A stretch of 64,000 bases of DNA, taken from the sequence record NC_048818.1; one strand, written 5' to 3'. The notes under the pieces were generated by a model. The model had not been told where the DNA came from, made no database searches, and worked only from the letters and a program-made list of their open reading frames with translations. Position numbers and translations under genes: made by a program. Of the stretch, positions 1 through 12,469 are shown piece by piece. This DNA is from Escherichia phage VEc33. Every line of letters begins with the position of its first letter. Position 1 is the stretch's first letter.

Positions 1-123
1 TGTCCACTGCCTCCGGCGAAAATACTTAGTCTGCTAACCGCCACCCCCGTTACTATTACCATGCTAACTGTTTCACCCTGCAACCATTTTAATTGCAAGG
101 TGAAACAATTTCAACTTTAATTA

Positions 124-1682: not shown

Positions 1683-3353
1683 TTACGCAAAGAATTTACC
1701 GTTTTTAAAGTCAATCAAAGTGCGCTGACCGTTTGCATAGGTAATTAAATGCGTTTGCGTCCAGCTTGACGCGCCAACGTTGTAACCCATATCCAGACTA
1801 CCAGCAACGCCAGCGGTATATACGCCGCCATAAATGCTGGCGGTATGGGTATGCCCCGTGTTTAACTTGCCCAATTTTTTAAATTGTTTAGGATTGCCAC
1901 GACTGCCGTTAATGCCATTGTGACCGTGTACGCCGCATTCAATGCCTGCAATCTTGAAAGATTGATCAGTGGTCAGGAAAATGGCGTTAAATTCACAACC
2001 TGCAACCTTGCGCAACGCATAATCTAGCACGTTAAACGTTTCGTCGTGTTCACCGATTGCCGCGTAAATTGCAGCATTCAGGCGGTGATATAACTCGGCG
2101 TTTGCTGGATCGTCTTTGATGTTAGCATTACGATCATCAAGCCAACGGGATAGCGCCAAATCGTGATTAGATTCAACAATGATTGTTTGACTAAAATCAC
2201 GTTCCATTGATTCCAGCACGCGCCCCGTATCGATAAGATCATCCAGAACTTTATCACGTCCGGCGGCGTATTGTTTAGCTAGGAATACACCGGATGCGCG
2301 GTTATGATGATTGCGGGATGTAAAATCGTGAACGTCATGCACAAACTGATATTTTGGTTTAAGAATATCTACTAGCCCATAAGTATCACCATGCCCCCAA
2401 GATGCGGCGGCGCACTCCTCATCTAATTTTTCGGCGTGAATATCGCCATACTGCAAGCCTAAAACATGCCCCGATGTCTCATAGCATCCGGCAGGAGTAG
2501 CGCAAACGTTCAGATCATAAAACACCCCGCTTTCGTCCATTGTTTCAAGCTGGCGAACAAAAAATTCCCCGTCCTCGTCGAACTCGACAATCAGCGCACC
2601 GAAGTTATGCAGCGCCTCGGCCTTTTGTCCTGCTTTCTGCTGAATGTAGTTTTTTAACGTTGCCGTTCCGGTTGAATACATACGGCGCACTACTTCACCT
2701 TTTAAAGCTGGCACGCTTTCAGCGGTAATTTTAGCGTGACCAATTGCCAGCCCCTCAATATTTAAAGCCGTTGCAGTCTCGGCGAATCCAGAAAGCGGAT
2801 AATCTGCGGTTGGCAAAACATTAATTTCAGCCATGAAAGCAAAGCGGCGGTTATTTAAAAACACGTTTTTGCTGCAAATATATTTATCGAACGCGGAATC
2901 ATATTTGATTCCATCCGCACCTTCCCCATTTTGAAAACCGTTTTTATTATAAATATACTTAGAAACAAGCAAATCAGCACCGATATATTTAGCAAATTGC
3001 TCCAGTGAGGCTAAAAAGTTTTTATGCGGGAAAGTATTATTCTGAATCGATGTAATAATAAAGCGTTTACCTTGTTTTACTTCCCATTGCTCCACCGTAC
3101 TAGAAACAATCCCAGCCGCTTCTGGGCGCTCATCATTTTTAATGGCTTTTGCTACTTTTGCCGCTTTTGGTTTCGCTGGTTTATTTGCTTCCAACCAATC
3201 ACAAATGGCGGTGGAGTGTTTAGTAGTATCGTATACCGCTTTCGAAATATCGTCACAAACTTCCAATTTAGTGGCGCGCAGGCGTTTACCGTAGAAGTTA
3301 AAGTCAGCGGCCATTTTCAGGATAACGGTTTGTTTTTCTGCGGAAATAATCAT
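1683..3353 (-). CDS. A1: A1-like pre-early protein, calcineurin-like metallophosphatase/nuclease fold (556 aa)
   Basis: 556 aa, the length I recall for T5 A1; metallophosphoesterase-type motifs (GDIHAEKLDE, GNHD-like, GHTHT); RBS before the ATG. Confidence 0.6.
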   Translation of the reverse strand: MIISAEKQTVILKMAADFNFYGKRLRATKLEVCDDISKAVYDTTKHSTAICDWLEANKPAKPKAAKVAKAIKNDERPEAAGIVSSTVEQWEVKQGKRFIITSIQNNTFPHKNFLASLEQFAKYIGADLLVSKYIYNKNGFQNGEGADGIKYDSAFDKYICSKNVFLNNRRFAFMAEINVLPTADYPLSGFAETATALNIEGLAIGHAKITAESVPALKGEVVRRMYSTGTATLKNYIQQKAGQKAEALHNFGALIVEFDEDGEFFVRQLETMDESGVFYDLNVCATPAGCYETSGHVLGLQYGDIHAEKLDEECAAASWGHGDTYGLVDILKPKYQFVHDVHDFTSRNHHNRASGVFLAKQYAAGRDKVLDDLIDTGRVLESMERDFSQTIIVESNHDLALSRWLDDRNANIKDDPANAELYHRLNAAIYAAIGEHDETFNVLDYALRKVAGCEFNAIFLTTDQSFKIAGIECGVHGHNGINGSRGNPKQFKKLGKLNTGHTHTASIYGGVYTAGVAGSLDMGYNVGASSWTQTHLITYANGQRTLIDFKNGKFFA

Positions 3354-3731: not shown

Positions 3732-4139
3732 TTATTCGCCTGCGGCCTGTTTTACTTCATCGGCAACGCCTAACAATTGCGCTACTGCGTCCAGCGTTTC
3801 AAGTTTTGCACTTTCAAGGCTTGCCAAATCATCGGCGTCTTTGATAATGCCGGAATCAATAGCATGTTTAGCGATAACGCGCACATAGTGAGCTTTACGC
3901 ACAGAGCTACCGCCGCCAACTTTACGCGGCTTATCGCTTTTTTGATAGGCTTTTGCACTGGTCAATTTTGAGCGAACGGATACGGGGGAGGCCGCGCCTA
4001 CTGCTTTTGCAATCTCTTTCAGGCCGTCGCTATTTGCAAAATCTAAACCGTTTTCGTTGATTAACTGCTGGTACATGGTAACAGCTTTCTGAGTGTTTTC
4101 TTCATTCCATGCGAATTTTGCGGTTTTTGCGTTAGTCAT
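3732..4139 (-). CDS. pre-early protein, possible A2-like DNA-binding protein (135 aa)
   Basis: Position immediately upstream (in transcript order) of the A1-like gene; basic central region; hairpin terminator downstream at about 3690-3720. Confidence 0.4.
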   Translation of the reverse strand: MTNAKTAKFAWNEENTQKAVTMYQQLINENGLDFANSDGLKEIAKAVGAASPVSVRSKLTSAKAYQKSDKPRKVGGGSSVRKAHYVRVIAKHAIDSGIIKDADDLASLESAKLETLDAVAQLLGVADEVKQAAGE

Positions 4140-8732: not shown

Positions 8733-8832
8733 GATTATATATTTTCGTTGGTAATGTTGAGGCAGCTAATGATTCCGCTGGTGGCGATAACGTTCGCCGC
8801 TATTGGCAAAAATATATTTACTAGGAGTTATT

Positions 8833-9027
8833 ATGAGCAATAAAATTGTTGTGACCAAAACTACTACGATGGTTGATGTTTTTTACGTGCCCGATACGCC
8901 GGAAAACCGACAAGCGGTCGAGCGTGGCGAATATGATAAAGTGATTTATGATCACGATGGTTATTATCAACATTTGGTAGATTCCTACGGGGAGGAGGAA
9001 AAAATCACGCACCGACTACCCGACTAA
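8833..9027 (+). CDS. hypothetical small protein (64 aa)
   Basis: AGGAG RBS before ATG 8833. Confidence 0.4.
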   Translation: MSNKIVVTKTTTMVDVFYVPDTPENRQAVERGEYDKVIYDHDGYYQHLVDSYGEEEKITHRLPD

Positions 9028-9283
9028 TAATCACGGGGCGCAACTATCAGGAAGTGCCCCCAATTTTCAAATGAGAATGATTATCATTTGACCGCGCCCG
9101 CGATAGTTAGCCTGCTAATGGTTAGGGTGTTACGTGTCGCCTTGTGTGATCGTTAGCGTGCTAACTAATTTTCAAGCCTCCTCCAATTTTGCCCTTGTTT
9201 TAGTATCCCCACCAAAATTAAACGCGTCAGAATGCGATCTAGGACGTTTTAGGCCTATATTAGAATTATTCACTGCATAGGAA

Positions 9284-9303
9284 TACTGTATAAATATACA
9301 GTA
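9284..9303. promoter_or_regulatory. LexA (SOS) box-like palindrome TACTGTATAAATATACAGTA
   Basis: Perfect CTGT-N8-ACAG with AT-rich spacer. Confidence 0.5.
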
Positions 9304-9313
9304 GAATAACCTG

Positions 9314-9394
9314 GGGATAAGTCTGTGGATAACGCTTCAAAATGGCTAGGATTCTGTCAAGTCAAATCGTGCTGTTGATAAGTCTGTGGATAAC
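9314..9394. promoter_or_regulatory. DnaA-box pair in reverse orientation (TGTGGATAA at 9324-9332 and 9386-9394), each preceded by GATAAGTC
   Basis: Reverse complements of TTATCCACA; inverted copy of the 5741-5769 module. Confidence 0.55.
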
Positions 9395-9627
9395 TTAAAT
9401 AGCAGTGTTTCTCACTTCCGTTTTTAAATGCGAATCATTATCATTCGCATTTCACTAGCTAACCGATAATCACTCCACGTTTTAAATGAGAATCATTTCA
9501 CTTCTTGAATAGTTCTCATTCCCTTTCTTAAATGCAAATCATTATCATTCGCATTTCACTTTTTAAATGAGATTGATTCTCATTATCATTCGCATTCAGG
9601 CGAGCAGGGCAATTGCCCTGCGCTTTT

Positions 9628-10228
9628 GTGCAAATCCGACATTTGCCCCCATGGGTTACGCGTGGGCATGTATGTGCAAATCCGACAATTTTTGGTAGTG
9701 TGCAAATCCGACCCGAAAAATTTTTATAGTGTGCAAATCCGACAACGAATTTTCCCAAAAACTCCAGCAATCACGAACTGCGTTCGAATCCTGTGGAATT
9801 AGCTAGAGTATGTGCAAATCCGACATGTGTTGAGCTATGCGAATCCGACAAGATTTTTGTGACTTCGATTGGAGGGTGTGTGATTGTATAAGTTTGAGGA
9901 GAAGATGAGAGAGCGAGAGAAATTTTGGGACTAGAAGGATGTGGGCGCAGGATTGGTGCGGAGCACCTGATTTGCGTGGATTTTGGGGAAGAGTTGAGAT
10001 AATTTGGGAAGATTTGAGATAGGCGCAGAAAAAGTAAAATTTTATTAGCAAAATGGCGCAAAATAGCTTGACAAGTGAAAATTCTTGTGGCTCTAAAAAC
10101 TCAGGCAATCATGGGCCTTCGGCCCGAAATAATGCTGCTATTTTCAGGAGAGTAAGAGTTCCTAAAAACTTAGGCGTTTGTGCAAATCCGACCATAAATT
10201 TCTAGAATATCAATGTGCAAATCCGACA
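9628..10228. repeat. about 8 dispersed direct repeats of GTGCAAATCCGACA
   Basis: Copies at 9628, 9674, 9699, 9731, 9812, 9837 (variant), 10180, 10215; irregular spacing. Confidence 0.6.
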
Positions 10229-10254
10229 GTAATTTCTAGAAATGTGTTTTCGAA

Positions 10255-10355
10255 AAATGTCTCCTAGAAATAACCGCCCTCCCTATAACCGCCCTATATT
10301 AACCGCCTAGTATATGCTCCTAGAAACTTAGGAGAACCGCCCTAGAAAGAGGGAG
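10255..10355. repeat. short tandem-like repeats of AACCGCCCT / CCTAGAAA
   Basis: AACCGCC(C)T four times and CTAGAAA four times within 100 bp. Confidence 0.45.
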
Positions 10356-10680
10356 TATTTCGTGAGAACTCTGGAGTTTCTAGGAAAGTGTTGTGTCATC
10401 CTAGCAGATGAGCGGCAACAGGTGTATCATCTTGAACACAGATATTGCCTTTAAATATTATAAGGTAAATTAAAAGTAAAGTAGCCCCCATTACATGTGT
10501 GCTTACTCGTGGGGCGCGTGATTAATTACGTAAGTCCTCGACTGTCATACCCCTGTTGCTCGGTCGCAAAGAGTTAACGAAGTCTCGTGTAATAATCATC
10601 GCCCCTAGAGTTCAAAACAAAAGTTGTTTTTAATCTATGTGATTATTATAACATGCAGATGGATGAACGTCAAGTAACGT

Positions 10681-11391
10681 TTATTCTTTTACTTTGGCTT
10701 TGAGTTTGATACCAAGAGATGCGAAGTAGATATAAGTTGCTAAATAGGACATAGCAGATCCTGTCTCTTCGTAAGAGAGAGTTCCTTTCACGTACCTCTT
10801 ATATTCTGGCTCTAGATTAATAATCGTAGTACTTGGCAATCCTAGCGAATTACATAATGATTTGAATGTTTCTTTATCTCTATGAATCGCATAGTGAATG
10901 GCTTTTTCTGTAGGAGTTAATTCTAGATCTTTGGTAATGGCTACGTGCAAACTCGCTATAGTCATGCCAATTCCACGATACGTTTCCTCCTTATTAAGAG
11001 AAGGTTTCTGTTTCTCTAACTCAGGAAGATGTGCAAATTCTCCCTTCTTTCTCGGAATCTTATCATCACTAAGTAATGCTGTTAAGAAATCTGTTTCTTC
11101 ATAGGCTGGGAGCACTTCATCAATCAATACTAGAATAGAACTAGCATTGATACCTTTCGCACTAGGATCTAAAGATTTTAATGCTTTATTAGTTTCAACG
11201 TAGGAGCCTGCTAATACTACCTTAGAGCTATTCCTATCATATTTAATTTTATTAGCTTCCCAACGTGCAGGACGATAATCAGATAGAAACATTACCGCAT
11301 ATTTTTGTTCATCTGTTAGCTCGGAGAAACATTTCTGGTTTGATTCTTTTGCTAGCGCAATAAGGTGCTTTAGTTTTTCTGCTTTATTCAT
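10681..11391 (-). CDS. hypothetical protein (236 aa)
   Basis: Long ORF; first of the AT-rich leftward early block. Confidence 0.55.
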   Translation of the reverse strand: MNKAEKLKHLIALAKESNQKCFSELTDEQKYAVMFLSDYRPARWEANKIKYDRNSSKVVLAGSYVETNKALKSLDPSAKGINASSILVLIDEVLPAYEETDFLTALLSDDKIPRKKGEFAHLPELEKQKPSLNKEETYRGIGMTIASLHVAITKDLELTPTEKAIHYAIHRDKETFKSLCNSLGLPSTTIINLEPEYKRYVKGTLSYEETGSAMSYLATYIYFASLGIKLKAKVKE

Positions 11392-11854: not shown

Positions 11855-12469
11855 TTATTGATCTTTTTTACTCTCGTTAATAGCAGCTCCCAATGCCTCC
11901 ATAATAGCATCCTCTAAACTTCCATGTTTACCAGGATTATTAAAATGAATAGTACAAACAGAACTCCTAGAAACTCCAGAGTCCCCAGGTGCTACGCTTT
12001 TCATGTCAGATTCAAAAGCTTCTTGGGTATGTTGCAGCTGTACAGAAGGGCCGTAATCTTCACCAAACTTATATGACTTCGTACTACTTACCACACCACC
12101 ACAAGGAACATTGTGCATATCCGACATTAATCTTTTATCGGAGTTATTCAGCATTGAGATTGTCCCTGACTGCCACGGATCTCTAATAGTCACTGGGGTA
12201 CTGGGACGATTTACCTCAGTCTTCACAAGTTTGTACCCTGCATCGATCAGTGCATTAATCAGGTTATCCGCCGGGATGCGAGCCGTACCAAAAATCTTAC
12301 GAGCGTCCTCGAGCTTACCTTCAAGATCTTTACATGCTCTAAGGTCAGTGTGTGCAAATGTTAGCTTCATAGATTTGAATTGTACAGTAGCAGTCAAATC
12401 TTTAAAGCTATAATCCCATGTGTTCAGTTCATGGTCTGGTACTACTTGAATAGATTGTTGTGTAAACAT
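11855..12469 (-). CDS. hypothetical protein (204 aa)
   Basis: Long ORF with RBS. Confidence 0.55.
   Translation of the reverse strand: MFTQQSIQVVPDHELNTWDYSFKDLTATVQFKSMKLTFAHTDLRACKDLEGKLEDARKIFGTARIPADNLINALIDAGYKLVKTEVNRPSTPVTIRDPWQSGTISMLNNSDKRLMSDMHNVPCGGVVSSTKSYKFGEDYGPSVQLQHTQEAFESDMKSVAPGDSGVSRSSVCTIHFNNPGKHGSLEDAIMEALGAAINESKKDQ

What the first reader, a model, noticed from the sequence alone, without database searches (positions are those of the whole stretch)
9628..10355. Two further repeat families: dispersed GTGCAAATCCGACA repeats and AACCGCCCT/CTAGAAA repeats
About eight copies of GTGCAAATCCGACA at irregular spacing over 600 bp, then four copies each of AACCGCCCT and CTAGAAA within 100 bp, all in an ORF-free region just before the first early gene (stop at 10681). 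The pattern looks like iterons or binding sites for a phage DNA-binding protein, or signals linked to the terminal-repeat boundary or DNA-injection pausing. It is not CRISPR-like.
Basis: seen in the sequence. Interest (0 to 1): 0.45.

Follow-up and report, generated by a model that had tools for sequence, protein, structure and literature searches.

The report
Known T5 terminal-repeat boundary repeats
These are the already-catalogued "direct repeat D" and neighbouring short repeats that sit around the inner end of the long terminal repeat of T5-like phages; they are real, strongly conserved and almost certainly protein-binding sites, but nobody has yet shown what binds them.

Summary
The window is the left end of a T5-like phage, and base 1 is the T5 left terminus. 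GTGCAAATCCGAC occurs 7 times exactly plus once with 2 mismatches, all on the + strand, between 9628 and 10227; about 0.9 such matches are expected in the whole 64 kb. These are T5's annotated "direct repeat D" (DRD) copies 1-8 in "Repeat Region 3". RefSeq T5 labels most of that region "injection stop signal". The feature is therefore already known, but no function has been assigned.

New detail from this work:
- By homology with five phages whose termini are annotated (BF23's by PhageTerm), the terminal repeat ends at window 10093|10094.
- Six DRDs lie inside the repeat and two outside it, at near-invariant distances.
- A Klebsiella T5-like phage has 5 + 5 copies around the same cut.
- A Vibrio T5-like phage has 8-10 copies beside its recorded repeat end.
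- DRD columns are better conserved than the surrounding non-coding DNA.
- No such arrays exist in host genomes.
- AACCGCCCT (+179, +194) and CTAGAAA also sit at conserved offsets.

My best guess (about 0.35-0.4) is that these are terminase small-subunit recognition sites that define the terminus cut and the start of packaging. The main rival (about 0.25) is binding of the A2 protein to restart DNA transfer. Replication iterons are unlikely.

The parts
9616..9623 (+). CCCTGCGC, homologue of the T5 major nick-1 (7.9%) site; overlaps the palindrome/hairpin GCAGGGCAATTGCCCTGC (9604-9621) and lies immediately before DRD copy 1
   Evidence: T5 annotation 'major single-stranded nick 1, 7.9%' at AY587007 9661-9668, aligned to the window. 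The same 8-mer occurs at T5 nicks 1, 2, 3 and 5. The hairpin is reported.
9628..9640 (+). DRD copy 1 (GTGCAAATCCGAC), -465 from the terminal-repeat end
9674..9686 (+). DRD copy 2, -419
9700..9712 (+). DRD copy 3, -393
9731..9743 (+). DRD copy 4, -362
9812..9824 (+). DRD copy 5, -281 (relatives have it at about -281 or about -291, one helical turn apart)
9837..9849 (+). DRD copy 6, degenerate (ATGCGAATCCGAC), -256
9983..10021 (+). G-rich block holding T5 'direct repeat A' copies 2 and 3 (TTGGGGAAGAGTTGAGATA / TTTGGGAAGATTTGAGATA)
   Evidence: AY587007 10026-10064
10060..10139 (+). DRD-free terminus core. It contains TTGACA (10068-10073), the inferred terminal-repeat end ...CTTGTGGCTC|TAAAAACTCAGG between 10093 and 10094, and the GC hairpin GGGCCTTCGGCCC (10113-10125). 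This is the most conserved stretch of the region.
   Evidence: The terminal-repeat ends of T5, MM-1, EscoHU1, SIA3lw and BF23 map to this junction. Eight contig right ends stop at or within 20 bp of it. In the Klebsiella-type genome, identity between the two repeat copies stops after TGTGGCTC. Conservation is 0.94-0.99. It is the only segment that still aligns by blastn to Klebsiella phages.
10180..10192 (+). DRD copy 7, +87 (outside the terminal repeat)
10215..10227 (+). DRD copy 8, +122 (outside the terminal repeat)
10151..10174 (+). 24-nt repeat copy 1 (AGTAAGAGTTCCTAAAAACTTAGG) containing the small palindrome CCTAA-N4-TTAGG; copy 2 is at 10309-10332
   Evidence: family D10
10199..10383 (.). 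CTAGAAA / TTTCTAGAAA / CCTAGAAA cluster: + strand copies at 10236, 10264, 10320, 10342 and - strand copies at 10199, 10233, 10377
   Evidence: The offsets +106, +171, +227 and about +284/+314 recur across 26 relatives.
10272..10343 (+). AACCGCCCT copies at 10272, 10287 and 10335, plus the truncated AACCGCC at 10301
   Evidence: Copies at +179 and +194 are present in 25 of 26 relatives. The Klebsiella type has two copies at +510/+539, and PM135 has TATAACCGCCCTGT once.
35..42 (+). TAACCGCC, 35 bp inside the left genome terminus; possibly related to the AACCGCCCT family (TAACCGCCACCCC against TAACCGCCCTCCC)
   Evidence: TAACCGCC occurs only 6 times in the window on both strands: 35, 10271, 10286, 10300 and two others. 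Bennett's left end begins ATTACCGCCCCCC. This is a post-hoc observation and not conclusive.
12113..12125 (+). Isolated DRD-like copy GTGCATATCCGAC (1 mismatch) inside an early gene, about +2020; also present in MM-1 and Kenya-K16

Best explanation
Shown. The two repeat families are part of the conserved, non-coding 'Repeat Region 3' of T5-like phages. GTGCAAATCCGAC is T5's annotated 'direct repeat D' (DRD). The arrays surround the inner end of the ~10-kb left terminal repeat, which falls at window 10093|10094. Six DRD copies lie 256-465 bp inside the repeat and are therefore also present near the right genome end. Two lie 87 and 122 bp outside it, followed by the AACCGCCCT/CTAGAAA cluster.

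Inferred. The DRDs are sequence-specific binding sites for a conserved phage-encoded DNA-binding protein, which assembles a multi-site nucleoprotein complex on both sides of a DRD-free, highly conserved ~340-bp core containing the cut site.

The mechanism I think most likely. That protein is the terminase small subunit (T5 SciB, PHROG 'terminase small subunit'), and the complex positions the terminase nuclease to make the cut ...GTGGCTC|TAAAAA in concatemeric DNA. That cut creates the right genome end, which is the first DNA packaged because the left end leaves the capsid first. On this reading the site works like the repeat-flanked pac sites of P1 or SPP1 and like lambda cosB. The AACCGCCCT/CTAGAAA cluster would be an accessory part of the same site or the target of a second factor.

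Confidence. Identity with T5 DRD/Repeat Region 3 is near certain (about 0.97). The confidence value given for this explanation refers to the terminase mechanism.
For: Identity. The region aligns collinearly with T5 Repeat Region 3 and with DRD copies 1-8 annotated in AY587007. The features are described in the literature.

Terminus position. The terminal-repeat ends of T5, MM-1, EscoHU1, SIA3lw and BF23 (the last determined with PhageTerm) all map to ...TGTGG(A/C)TC|TAAAAACTCAGG, which is window 10093|10094. Seven contig right ends stop exactly there and an eighth within 20 bp. In a Klebsiella-type genome, identity between the two repeat copies stops exactly after TGTGGCTC.

Bracketing. DRD offsets are near-invariant in about 30 T5-like loci: -465, -419, -393, -362, -281/-291, -256 on one side and +87, +122 (and +259 in some) on the other. 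The Klebsiella type has 5 + 5 copies around the same cut, although only the 78-bp core still aligns by blastn.

Constraint. DRD columns score 0.964 against 0.864 for other columns, permutation p = 0.003, and the terminus core scores 0.94-0.99. DRD5 occurs at two offsets 10 bp apart, which keeps its helical phase.

Depth of conservation. The same motif is present 8-10 times beside the recorded repeat end of Vibrio phage Bennett, whose A1 protein is only 32% identical.

Specificity. Paired motifs occur only in contigs of T5-like size in IMG/VR. No such arrays occur in Enterobacterales or Vibrionales genomes.

A candidate binder exists. SciB matches PHROG 3802 'terminase small subunit' and is 46-53% identical across genera.

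Precedent. T7, the textbook exact-DTR phage, also has short same-orientation repeats inside and just beyond its terminal repeat.
Against: No binding or genetic data exist, and I found no literature on the T5 terminase recognition site.

In Vibrio phage Bennett all DRD-like copies lie on the unique side of the recorded repeat end, 45-570 bp away, so they abut the cut rather than bracket it. That is only partly compatible with the model and depends on how that record's ends were determined.

Proteus phage PM135 keeps a TerS that is 53% identical to T5's, yet it has only one degenerate DRD plus a few inverted core copies.

In four lineages DRD copy 1 always directly follows the iss-type modules and the nick motif, and the classical first-step-transfer shear point (~7.9%) falls within ~60 bp of it. 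This fits an injection role equally well.

No DRD copies lie near the other cut, at the left terminus.

Conserved extra copies exist inside exo2 and an early gene, which a pure packaging signal does not predict.
Confidence: 0.38

Rival explanations
1. The DRDs are binding sites for the pre-early protein A2, a known DNA-binding dimer that acts together with A1. Once made from first-step-transfer DNA, A2 would grip the array located at and just beyond the arrest point. It would then restart or ratchet second-step transfer, or, as in Davison's model, direct A1/A2 cleavage to the right of the stop signal.
For: A2 and A1 are required for second-step transfer, and A2 is a DNA-binding dimer. A2 is conserved in all the lineages examined, at 43-44% identity, and matches PHROG 1725 'DNA binding protein'. 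In T5, the Klebsiella type, Bennett and PM135 the order is always LexA-like box, DnaA boxes, further repeats, nick motif, then DRD1, wherever the recorded repeat end lies. The ~7.9% shear point lies at the start of the array. Copies 1-6 fall within the RefSeq 'iss' feature.
Against: This model does not explain the invariant distances of both sub-arrays to the genome terminus, or the conserved DRD-free core containing the cut. PM135 keeps A2 but has almost no DRD array. No sequence specificity of A2 is reported in the literature I could read.
Confidence: 0.25
2. The DRDs are part of the injection stop signal itself. They would bind a host or virion protein, or impose a DNA structure, that physically arrests DNA entry after ~8% of the genome.
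For: The repeats overlap the annotated iss and lie at the FST boundary. The region also carries near-consensus sites for host proteins: a LexA box matching 19 of 20 positions, DnaA boxes, and Fur-like boxes. The motif is unchanged in phages of Escherichia, Salmonella, Klebsiella and Vibrio, as would be expected for a conserved host factor.
Against: [quoted passage not shown] Copies 7-8, and all copies in Bennett, lie well to the right of the arrest point. No DRD arrays exist in host chromosomes. I could not match the motif to any host-factor consensus from memory, and that was not a formal test.
Confidence: 0.12
3. The DRDs are replication iterons, that is, origin-type initiator-binding repeats.
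For: They are direct repeats in one orientation with DnaA boxes about 300 bp away. There is a loose resemblance to the plasmid F iteron start TGTGACAAAT, recalled from memory only.
Against: There is no initiator gene adjacent and the spacing is irregular (25-81 bp) rather than a ~22-bp iteron phasing. The T5 literature places origins near the genome centre, and replication functions are not expressed from FST DNA.
Confidence: 0.04
4. The repeats are transcription-related or have no specific function, for example terminator or promoter debris in a convergent intergenic region, or a drifting selfish repeat.
For: The region lies between convergent pre-early (+) and early (-) genes. It contains a terminator-like hairpin at 9604-9621 and a strong leftward promoter at 10673-10645.
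Against: The motif columns are more conserved than their surroundings, and the motif survives where the flanks no longer align. The DRDs do not resemble sigma-70 promoter elements or hairpins. There is no Rfam hit.
Confidence: 0.04

Closest known systems
Bacteriophage T5 'direct repeat D' (DRD) copies 1-9 in 'Repeat Region 3' of the left terminal repeat (annotation of AY587007; Davison 2020 bioRxiv 10.1101/866236)
   Same: The motif, order, spacing and flanking features (palindrome J, nick 1, direct repeat A, repeat end) are the same, and the region aligns collinearly.
   Different: The window lacks T5's copy 9, which sits in a 45-bp T5-type insertion, and has a third AACCGCCCT and CTAGAAAG there instead. 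The AACCGCCCT/CTAGAAA family is not itself annotated in the T5 record.
T5 injection stop signal (iss) as annotated in RefSeq NC_005859 (9140-10149)
   Same: DRD copies 1-6 and the G-rich block fall within the homologous interval.
   Different: The annotation is positional, not functional. Published reasoning puts the actual stop at the DnaA-box and DRE modules to the left. DRD 7-8 and the second repeat family lie outside both the annotated iss and the terminal repeat.
Repeat-flanked terminase recognition sites: P1 pac (hexamer clusters on both sides of the cut), SPP1 pacL/pacR, lambda cosB R sites (from established knowledge; lambda cosB also)
   Same: Several short same-orientation repeats lie on one or both sides of a defined cleavage site that starts packaging.
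   Different: The sequences are unrelated. The T5 arrays are spread over ~700 bp with the cut 87-256 bp from the nearest copy. T5 makes exact long terminal repeats rather than headful or cohesive ends. TerS binding has not been tested.
T7 CCTAAAG heptamer arrays in and next to the 160-bp terminal repeat
   Same: An exact-DTR phage has a short same-orientation repeat 3 times inside the repeat and about 12 times just beyond its inner end.
   Different: The T7 unit is a 7-mer with a regular 13-bp period and an unrelated sequence, against a 13-16-mer at irregular spacing here. The function of the T7 arrays is also not firmly established, as far as I recall.
Plasmid/phage replication iterons
   Same: Direct repeats of a 13-16-bp motif near DnaA boxes.
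   Different: No adjacent initiator gene, no regular phasing, and no evidence for an origin here.

Membership tests
T5 direct repeat D / Repeat Region 3 | Motif (T)GTGCAAATCCGAC(A) repeated in one orientation | tested here: met
   7 exact copies plus 1 degenerate copy, all on the + strand. The motif is identical to that of T5 copies 1-8.
T5 direct repeat D / Repeat Region 3 | Position: begins right after palindrome J and major nick 1, in the untranslated right end of the left terminal repeat, and runs ~270 bp into unique DNA | tested here: met
   Collinear alignment with AY587007. The window's array spans -465 to +122 around the repeat end.
T5 direct repeat D / Repeat Region 3 | Conserved order of neighbouring elements (DnaA-box inverted repeats, DRC/DRE repeats, DRA copies 2 and 3) | tested here: met
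T5 injection stop signal (iss) | Lies in the non-coding LTR segment at about 7.9-8.3% of the genome | tested here: met
   Homologous to the NC_005859 'iss' feature at 9140-10149 for DRD 1-6. DRD 7-8 and the AACCGCCCT/CTAGAAA cluster lie outside it.
T5 injection stop signal (iss) | [quoted passage not shown] | not testable with these tools
   This needs infection experiments. The literature has not dissected which element is responsible.
Terminase recognition site (pac/cos-type) | Located at or next to the terminase cleavage site that forms a genome end | tested here: met
   The terminus maps to 10093|10094, between the two DRD sub-arrays.
Terminase recognition site (pac/cos-type) | Repeated elements bound by the small terminase subunit | not testable with these tools
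   A TerS homologue exists (SciB, PHROG 3802), but binding cannot be computed here.
Terminase recognition site (pac/cos-type) | Same relationship between repeats and cut site in all relatives | tested here: inconclusive
   The arrays bracket the cut in Tequintavirus, Epseptimavirus and the Klebsiella type. They lie on one side only in Bennett according to its record. The array is nearly absent in PM135.
Replication iterons | Adjacent initiator (Rep) gene and origin features with regularly phased repeats | tested here: not met
   No ORF of >=60 aa is supported in 9030-10680, and the spacings are 25-81 and 343 bp. Origins are reported elsewhere in the genome.
CRISPR array | Regular repeat-spacer periodicity with repeats of 23-50 bp | tested here: not met
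   A 13-16-bp motif at irregular spacing.
Known structured RNA (Rfam) | Match to a curated covariance model | tested here: not met
   No match with E <= 1 in 8800-11000.

The most novel reading that the evidence does not exclude
The DRD arrays, the conserved core (TTGACA...GTGGCTC|TAAAAA plus hairpin) and the AACCGCC elements, one of which also sits 35 bp inside the left terminus, would together form the long-sought terminus-generation and packaging site of T5-like phages. The site would be read by the SciB/TerS-TerL terminase. This would link the old 'sci' (nick-deficient) genetics, the nick-1 site that abuts DRD1 in every lineage, and the exact 10-kb terminal repeat in a single mechanism. 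The same array in the left repeat might also take part in arrest or restart of DNA entry.
Probability: 0.3. Interest if true: 0.6.

Novelty: already known. Interest (0 to 1): 0.3.

Why it matters
T5's two-step DNA injection and the way it generates exact 10-kb terminal repeats have been unexplained for about 60 years. The DRD array is the most conserved short motif at the exact place where the first-step-transfer boundary, a major nick and the genome terminus all coincide. The repeats themselves are not new. The comparative facts assembled here turn a catalogue entry into a specific experiment: do TerS (SciB) or A2 bind these sites, and what happens to termini, packaging and second-step transfer when the sites are mutated? 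Those facts are:
- fixed distances of the repeats to an independently determined terminus;
- 5 + 5 copies around the same cut in a Klebsiella phage;
- survival of the motif in Vibrio phages;
- absence of such arrays from host genomes.

The terminus mapping is also of practical use. GenBank records of T5-like phages annotate the terminal-repeat end inconsistently, and the ...TGTGGnTC|TAAAAACTCAGG junction is a usable landmark.

Tried and rejected
1. Fetching relatives through the neighbouring early protein found nothing in IMG/VR. I replaced it with DNA-pattern scans.

2. Davison's 2015 review could not be retrieved. I found no paper on a T5 terminase recognition site or on A2 sequence specificity.

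3. I tried to use PM135, which has almost lost the array, against Bennett, which kept it, to separate TerS from A2 by protein similarity. Both proteins are about equally conserved (TerS 53%/46%, A2 44%/43%), so the comparison does not discriminate. Pfam gave nothing for A1, A2 or SciB.

4. I tested whether the DRD is a general part of nick sites and rejected the idea. T5 nicks 2 and 3 have none within ±700 bp.

5. I tested for host-chromosome arrays. The 34 genome hits are unrelated tandem or REP-like repeats in Bacteroidales, Chloroflexota, archaea and similar taxa, with none in Enterobacterales or Vibrionales. Single host sites could not be tested.

6. Rfam and the promoter/terminator scans gave no explanation for the repeats themselves.

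7. The DRD pair inside T5 exo2 is conserved in Epseptimavirus, but it lies in a coding stretch that is 98% identical, so this is uninformative.

8. The Kenya-K16 and K36 DTR annotations disagree with each other and with five other genomes. I treated them as unreliable.

9. I compared the motif from memory with consensus sites of common E. coli DNA-binding proteins (IHF, Fis, CRP, PurR/CytR, FadR, NtrC, MarA, XerCD, matS, KOPS, Chi) and saw no convincing match. This was not a formal test.

10. I did not predict the structures of A2 or TerS, because a fold would not tell which of them binds the DRD.
Full report
**What the window is.** The sequence around the finding matches hundreds of T5-like phages (Demerecviridae; Tequintavirus/Epseptimavirus) at 80-95% identity. 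Window base 1 (TGTCCACTGCC...) is the first base of the T5 terminal repeat. The window is therefore the left 64 kb of a T5-like genome and starts at the physical left end. The pre-early genes dmp, A1 (1683-3353, minus strand) and A2 (3732-4139, minus strand) are present.

**Checking the observation.**
- GTGCAAATCCGAC occurs exactly at 9628, 9674, 9700, 9731, 9812, 10180 and 10215, and with two mismatches at 9837. All copies are on the + strand. At <=2 mismatches the whole window has 10 matches against 0.92 expected, and no shuffle reaches 10.
- AACCGCCCT occurs exactly three times (10272, 10287, 10335) and nowhere else in 64 kb. A truncated AACCGCC lies at 10301.
- CTAGAAA occurs four times on the + strand and three times on the - strand between 10199 and 10383, which is 7 of the window's 27 copies.
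- The interval 9030-10680 has no supported gene. The only long ORFs are two TTG-start minus-strand ORFs in a G-rich block. Curated T5 and BF23 records annotate nothing there, and relatives differ by indels that are not multiples of three.

**What it is.**
- T5's GenBank record AY587007 annotates 'direct repeat D' copies 1-9 at 9672-10409. It also annotates palindrome J, 'major single-stranded nick 1, 7.9%', direct repeat A copies 2 and 3, and the end of the left terminal repeat at 10139.
- The window aligns collinearly with this stretch. Its eight copies are T5 DRD 1-8. T5's copy 9 lies in a 45-bp insertion that the window lacks.
- Davison (bioRxiv 10.1101/866236) describes this 'Repeat Region 3' (T5 9194-10409), notes that it overruns the repeat by ~270 bp, lists 'nine DRD repeats', and stresses its conservation. 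He assigns no function to the DRDs. His candidate stop signal is the DnaA-box inverted repeat plus the DRE repeats to the left.
- RefSeq T5 labels 9140-10149 'injection stop signal (iss)', which covers DRD 1-6.
- A 2026 paper still calls the stop signal poorly understood.
- The finding is therefore a rediscovery of a catalogued feature whose function remains unknown.

**Where the terminal repeat ends.**
- The annotated repeat ends of T5 (10139), MM-1 (10407), EscoHU1 (9914) and SIA3lw all map to ...CTTGTGG(A/C)TC|TAAAAACTCAGG. So does BF23 (9743), whose ends were determined with PhageTerm.
- Seven loci that are the right ends of their contigs stop exactly at this junction, and an eighth within 20 bp.
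- In a Klebsiella-type genome that carries both repeats, identity between the right repeat and the left junction stops exactly after TGTGGCTC.
- Two Kenya-phage records place the end elsewhere and disagree with each other, so I regard them as unreliable.

**Anatomy relative to the terminus.**
- In about 30 T5-like loci the DRD offsets are almost fixed: -465, -419, -393, -362, -281 or -291, and -256 on one side; +87, +122 and sometimes +259 on the other.
- DRD5 occurs in two positions 10 bp apart, one helical turn.
- Between the sub-arrays lies a DRD-free core of ~340 bp. It contains a G-rich block (direct repeat A), a TTGACA, the cut and a GC hairpin. Positions 10060-10139 are the best-conserved part of the whole region, at 0.94-0.99.
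- DRD columns score 0.964 against 0.864 for the other non-coding columns (permutation p = 0.003).
- AACCGCCCT sits at +179 and +194 in 25 of 26 loci. CTAGAAA recurs at +106, +171, +227 and about +284/+314.

**Deep conservation.**
- Klebsiella T5-like phages align by blastn only over the 78 bp just left of the cut. Even so, they keep the whole layout: DnaA boxes, AAATGCGAATCATT repeats, CCTGCGC, five DRDs, a G-rich block, TTGACA...CCTGTGGCTC|TAAAAAA, a different hairpin, five more DRD-like copies, then AACCGCCCT twice with TAGAAAGA.
- Vibrio phage Bennett (Thalassavirus; A1 32% identical) has 8-10 copies of AGGTGCAAATCCGAY in one orientation, next to its recorded repeat end. These include the composite CTGCGC-N4-GTGCAAATCCGACA that matches T5's nick-1/DRD1 arrangement. 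All copies lie on the unique side.
- Proteus phage PM135 keeps the LexA-like box, the DnaA boxes, CCTGCGC plus one degenerate DRD, a few inverted cores (GGATTTGCA) and one TATAACCGCCCTGT, but has no real array.
- Paired DRDs occur in IMG/VR only in contigs of 96-123 kb, the size of T5-like genomes. A looser three-copy pattern finds no array in Enterobacterales or Vibrionales genomes.

**How it most likely works.** The data point to an array of sites for a sequence-specific DNA-binding protein that is conserved across Demerecviridae. Two phage proteins qualify.
- **Terminase small subunit.** T5 SciB matches PHROG 3802 'terminase small subunit'. An exact-DTR phage must recognise its cut site. 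The arrays bracket that cut at fixed distances in two divergent lineages. Because the left end leaves the capsid first, the right end, made by this cut, should be packaged first. The layout resembles the repeat-flanked P1 and SPP1 pac sites and lambda cosB (from established knowledge). T7 shows an analogous arrangement of short repeats in and beyond its terminal repeat. I rate this reading about 0.35-0.4.
- **A2.** This is the DNA-binding dimer required with A1 for second-step transfer. In favour, DRD1 always directly follows the stop-signal modules and the nick motif, and the 7.9% shear point lies at the start of the array. Against, the model does not explain the fixed geometry around the terminus. 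I rate it about 0.25.
- Protein similarity across lineages does not separate the two candidates.
- A role in the arrest itself, through a host or virion factor, is less likely (about 0.12). Replication iterons are unlikely (about 0.04) because there is no initiator gene, the spacing is irregular, and origins are reported elsewhere.
- All mechanistic statements here are inference. Nothing has been shown to bind.

**The second repeat family.** AACCGCCCT and CTAGAAA are real and conserved, but their role is less clear. Two observations may connect them to the ends and the nicks.
- TAACCGCC also lies 35 bp inside the left terminus (TAACCGCCACCCC against TAACCGCCCTCCC). The window has only six copies in all, and Bennett's left end starts ATTACCGCCCCCC.
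- The T5 nick-2 site (window 23087) is followed by CCTAGAAACTCTGGAGTT. The same element is present in inverted form at 10368-10384 and again at 11966-11982.
- Both observations are post hoc and were only partly followed.

**Verdict.** The feature is already known, its function is open, and interest is modest (0.3). The added value is the precise terminus mapping, the bracketing geometry, the depth of conservation, and a clear experiment to decide between TerS and A2.

Noticed in passing
window 9284-9303: TACTGTATAAATATACAGTA matches the LexA (SOS-box) consensus at 19 of 20 positions, directly upstream of the paired DnaA boxes (9312-9332, 9373-9393). CTGT-N8-ACAG palindromes sit in the same place in Vibrio phage Bennett (ACTGTATATTTATACAGTG, 3 copies) and in Proteus phage PM135. 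T5 annotates it only as 'palindrome D'.
   Followed up: partly
window 9067-9091, 9424-9448, 9528-9552, 9569-9593: The AAATGAGAATCATT.../GAATCATTATCATTC repeats (T5 direct repeat C/E, palindromes E-I) match the 19-bp Fur-box consensus at 14-16 of 19 positions. Such matches are concentrated in the terminal repeat: about 9 loci in the first 10 kb against 3 in the other 54 kb. This may matter because T5-like phages use Fur-regulated receptors. The motif is AT-rich, however, so the resemblance may be due to base composition.
   Followed up: partly
window 10673-10645 (minus strand): A near-consensus sigma-70 promoter (TTGACG, 17-nt spacer, TG-TATAAT) lies immediately downstream of the last early gene and points leftward into the non-coding repeat region. 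The -10 area (TTATTATAACATG) is conserved in T5, the Klebsiella type and PM135. Its transcript is unknown, and there is no Rfam hit.
   Followed up: partly
window 10400-10439: The block ...CCTAGCAGATGAGCGGCAACAGGTGTATCATCTTGAA... is almost invariant (0.93-0.96) among 24 relatives, while the DNA to its right (10460-10660) is poorly conserved. Its function is unknown.
   Followed up: no
window 9616 and 23087; T5 loci L003, L052, L053, L054: T5 major nick sites share CCCTGCGC (CCCGCGC at nick 4) and a second element (A/G)TTACG(C/G)(G/A)TG about 38-45 nt downstream. The window has homologues of nick 1 (9616) and nick 2 (23087). Nick 2 is followed by CCTAGAAACTCTGGAGTT, an element also found at 10368-10384 (inverted) and 11966-11982.
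   Followed up: partly
window 12113-12125; T5 AY587007 79019-79048 (L054 1020-1049): DRD copies also occur outside the array. A single copy (GTGCATATCCGAC) lies inside an early gene about 2 kb right of the repeat end and is shared with MM-1 and Kenya-K16. A tandem pair (T5 'copies 11 and 12') lies inside exo2/D13, about 370 bp from nick 4, and is conserved in Epseptimavirus. There the pair encodes a VQILQ-VQIRQ peptide repeat, so coding constraint cannot be excluded.
   Followed up: partly
window 35-42: TAACCGCC, the core of the AACCGCCCT family, lies 35 bp inside the left genome terminus. The window has only six copies, three of them in the cluster right of the repeat end. Vibrio phage Bennett's left end begins ATTACCGCCCCCC. 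The motif is not clearly present at the Klebsiella-type left end.
   Followed up: partly
L002 (Kenya-K16) 2901; L048 (Kenya-K36) 1993: The GenBank DTR annotations of these Kenya phages end at non-homologous places: just after the DnaA boxes in K16, and at the first early gene in K36. This disagrees with the junction shared by T5, BF23, MM-1, EscoHU1 and SIA3lw, so these are probably annotation errors.
   Followed up: yes
L047 9040-9130 (Vibrio phage Bennett): Bennett's recorded terminal-repeat boundary falls in the middle of a run of six 15-bp tandem units. Three are identical CTATATTAGTGATCC units inside the repeat and three are degenerate units outside it. The sequence is unrelated to the T5-type junction, so either the terminus has moved in this lineage or the recorded end is imprecise.
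   Followed up: no
panel of 26 loci, DRD copy 5 (window 9812): DRD5 occupies one of two positions (about -281 or about -291 from the terminus) that differ by 10 bp. The shift is produced by compensating 10-bp indels on either side (seen in MM-1), which suggests that helical phase relative to DRD6 is maintained.
   Followed up: partly
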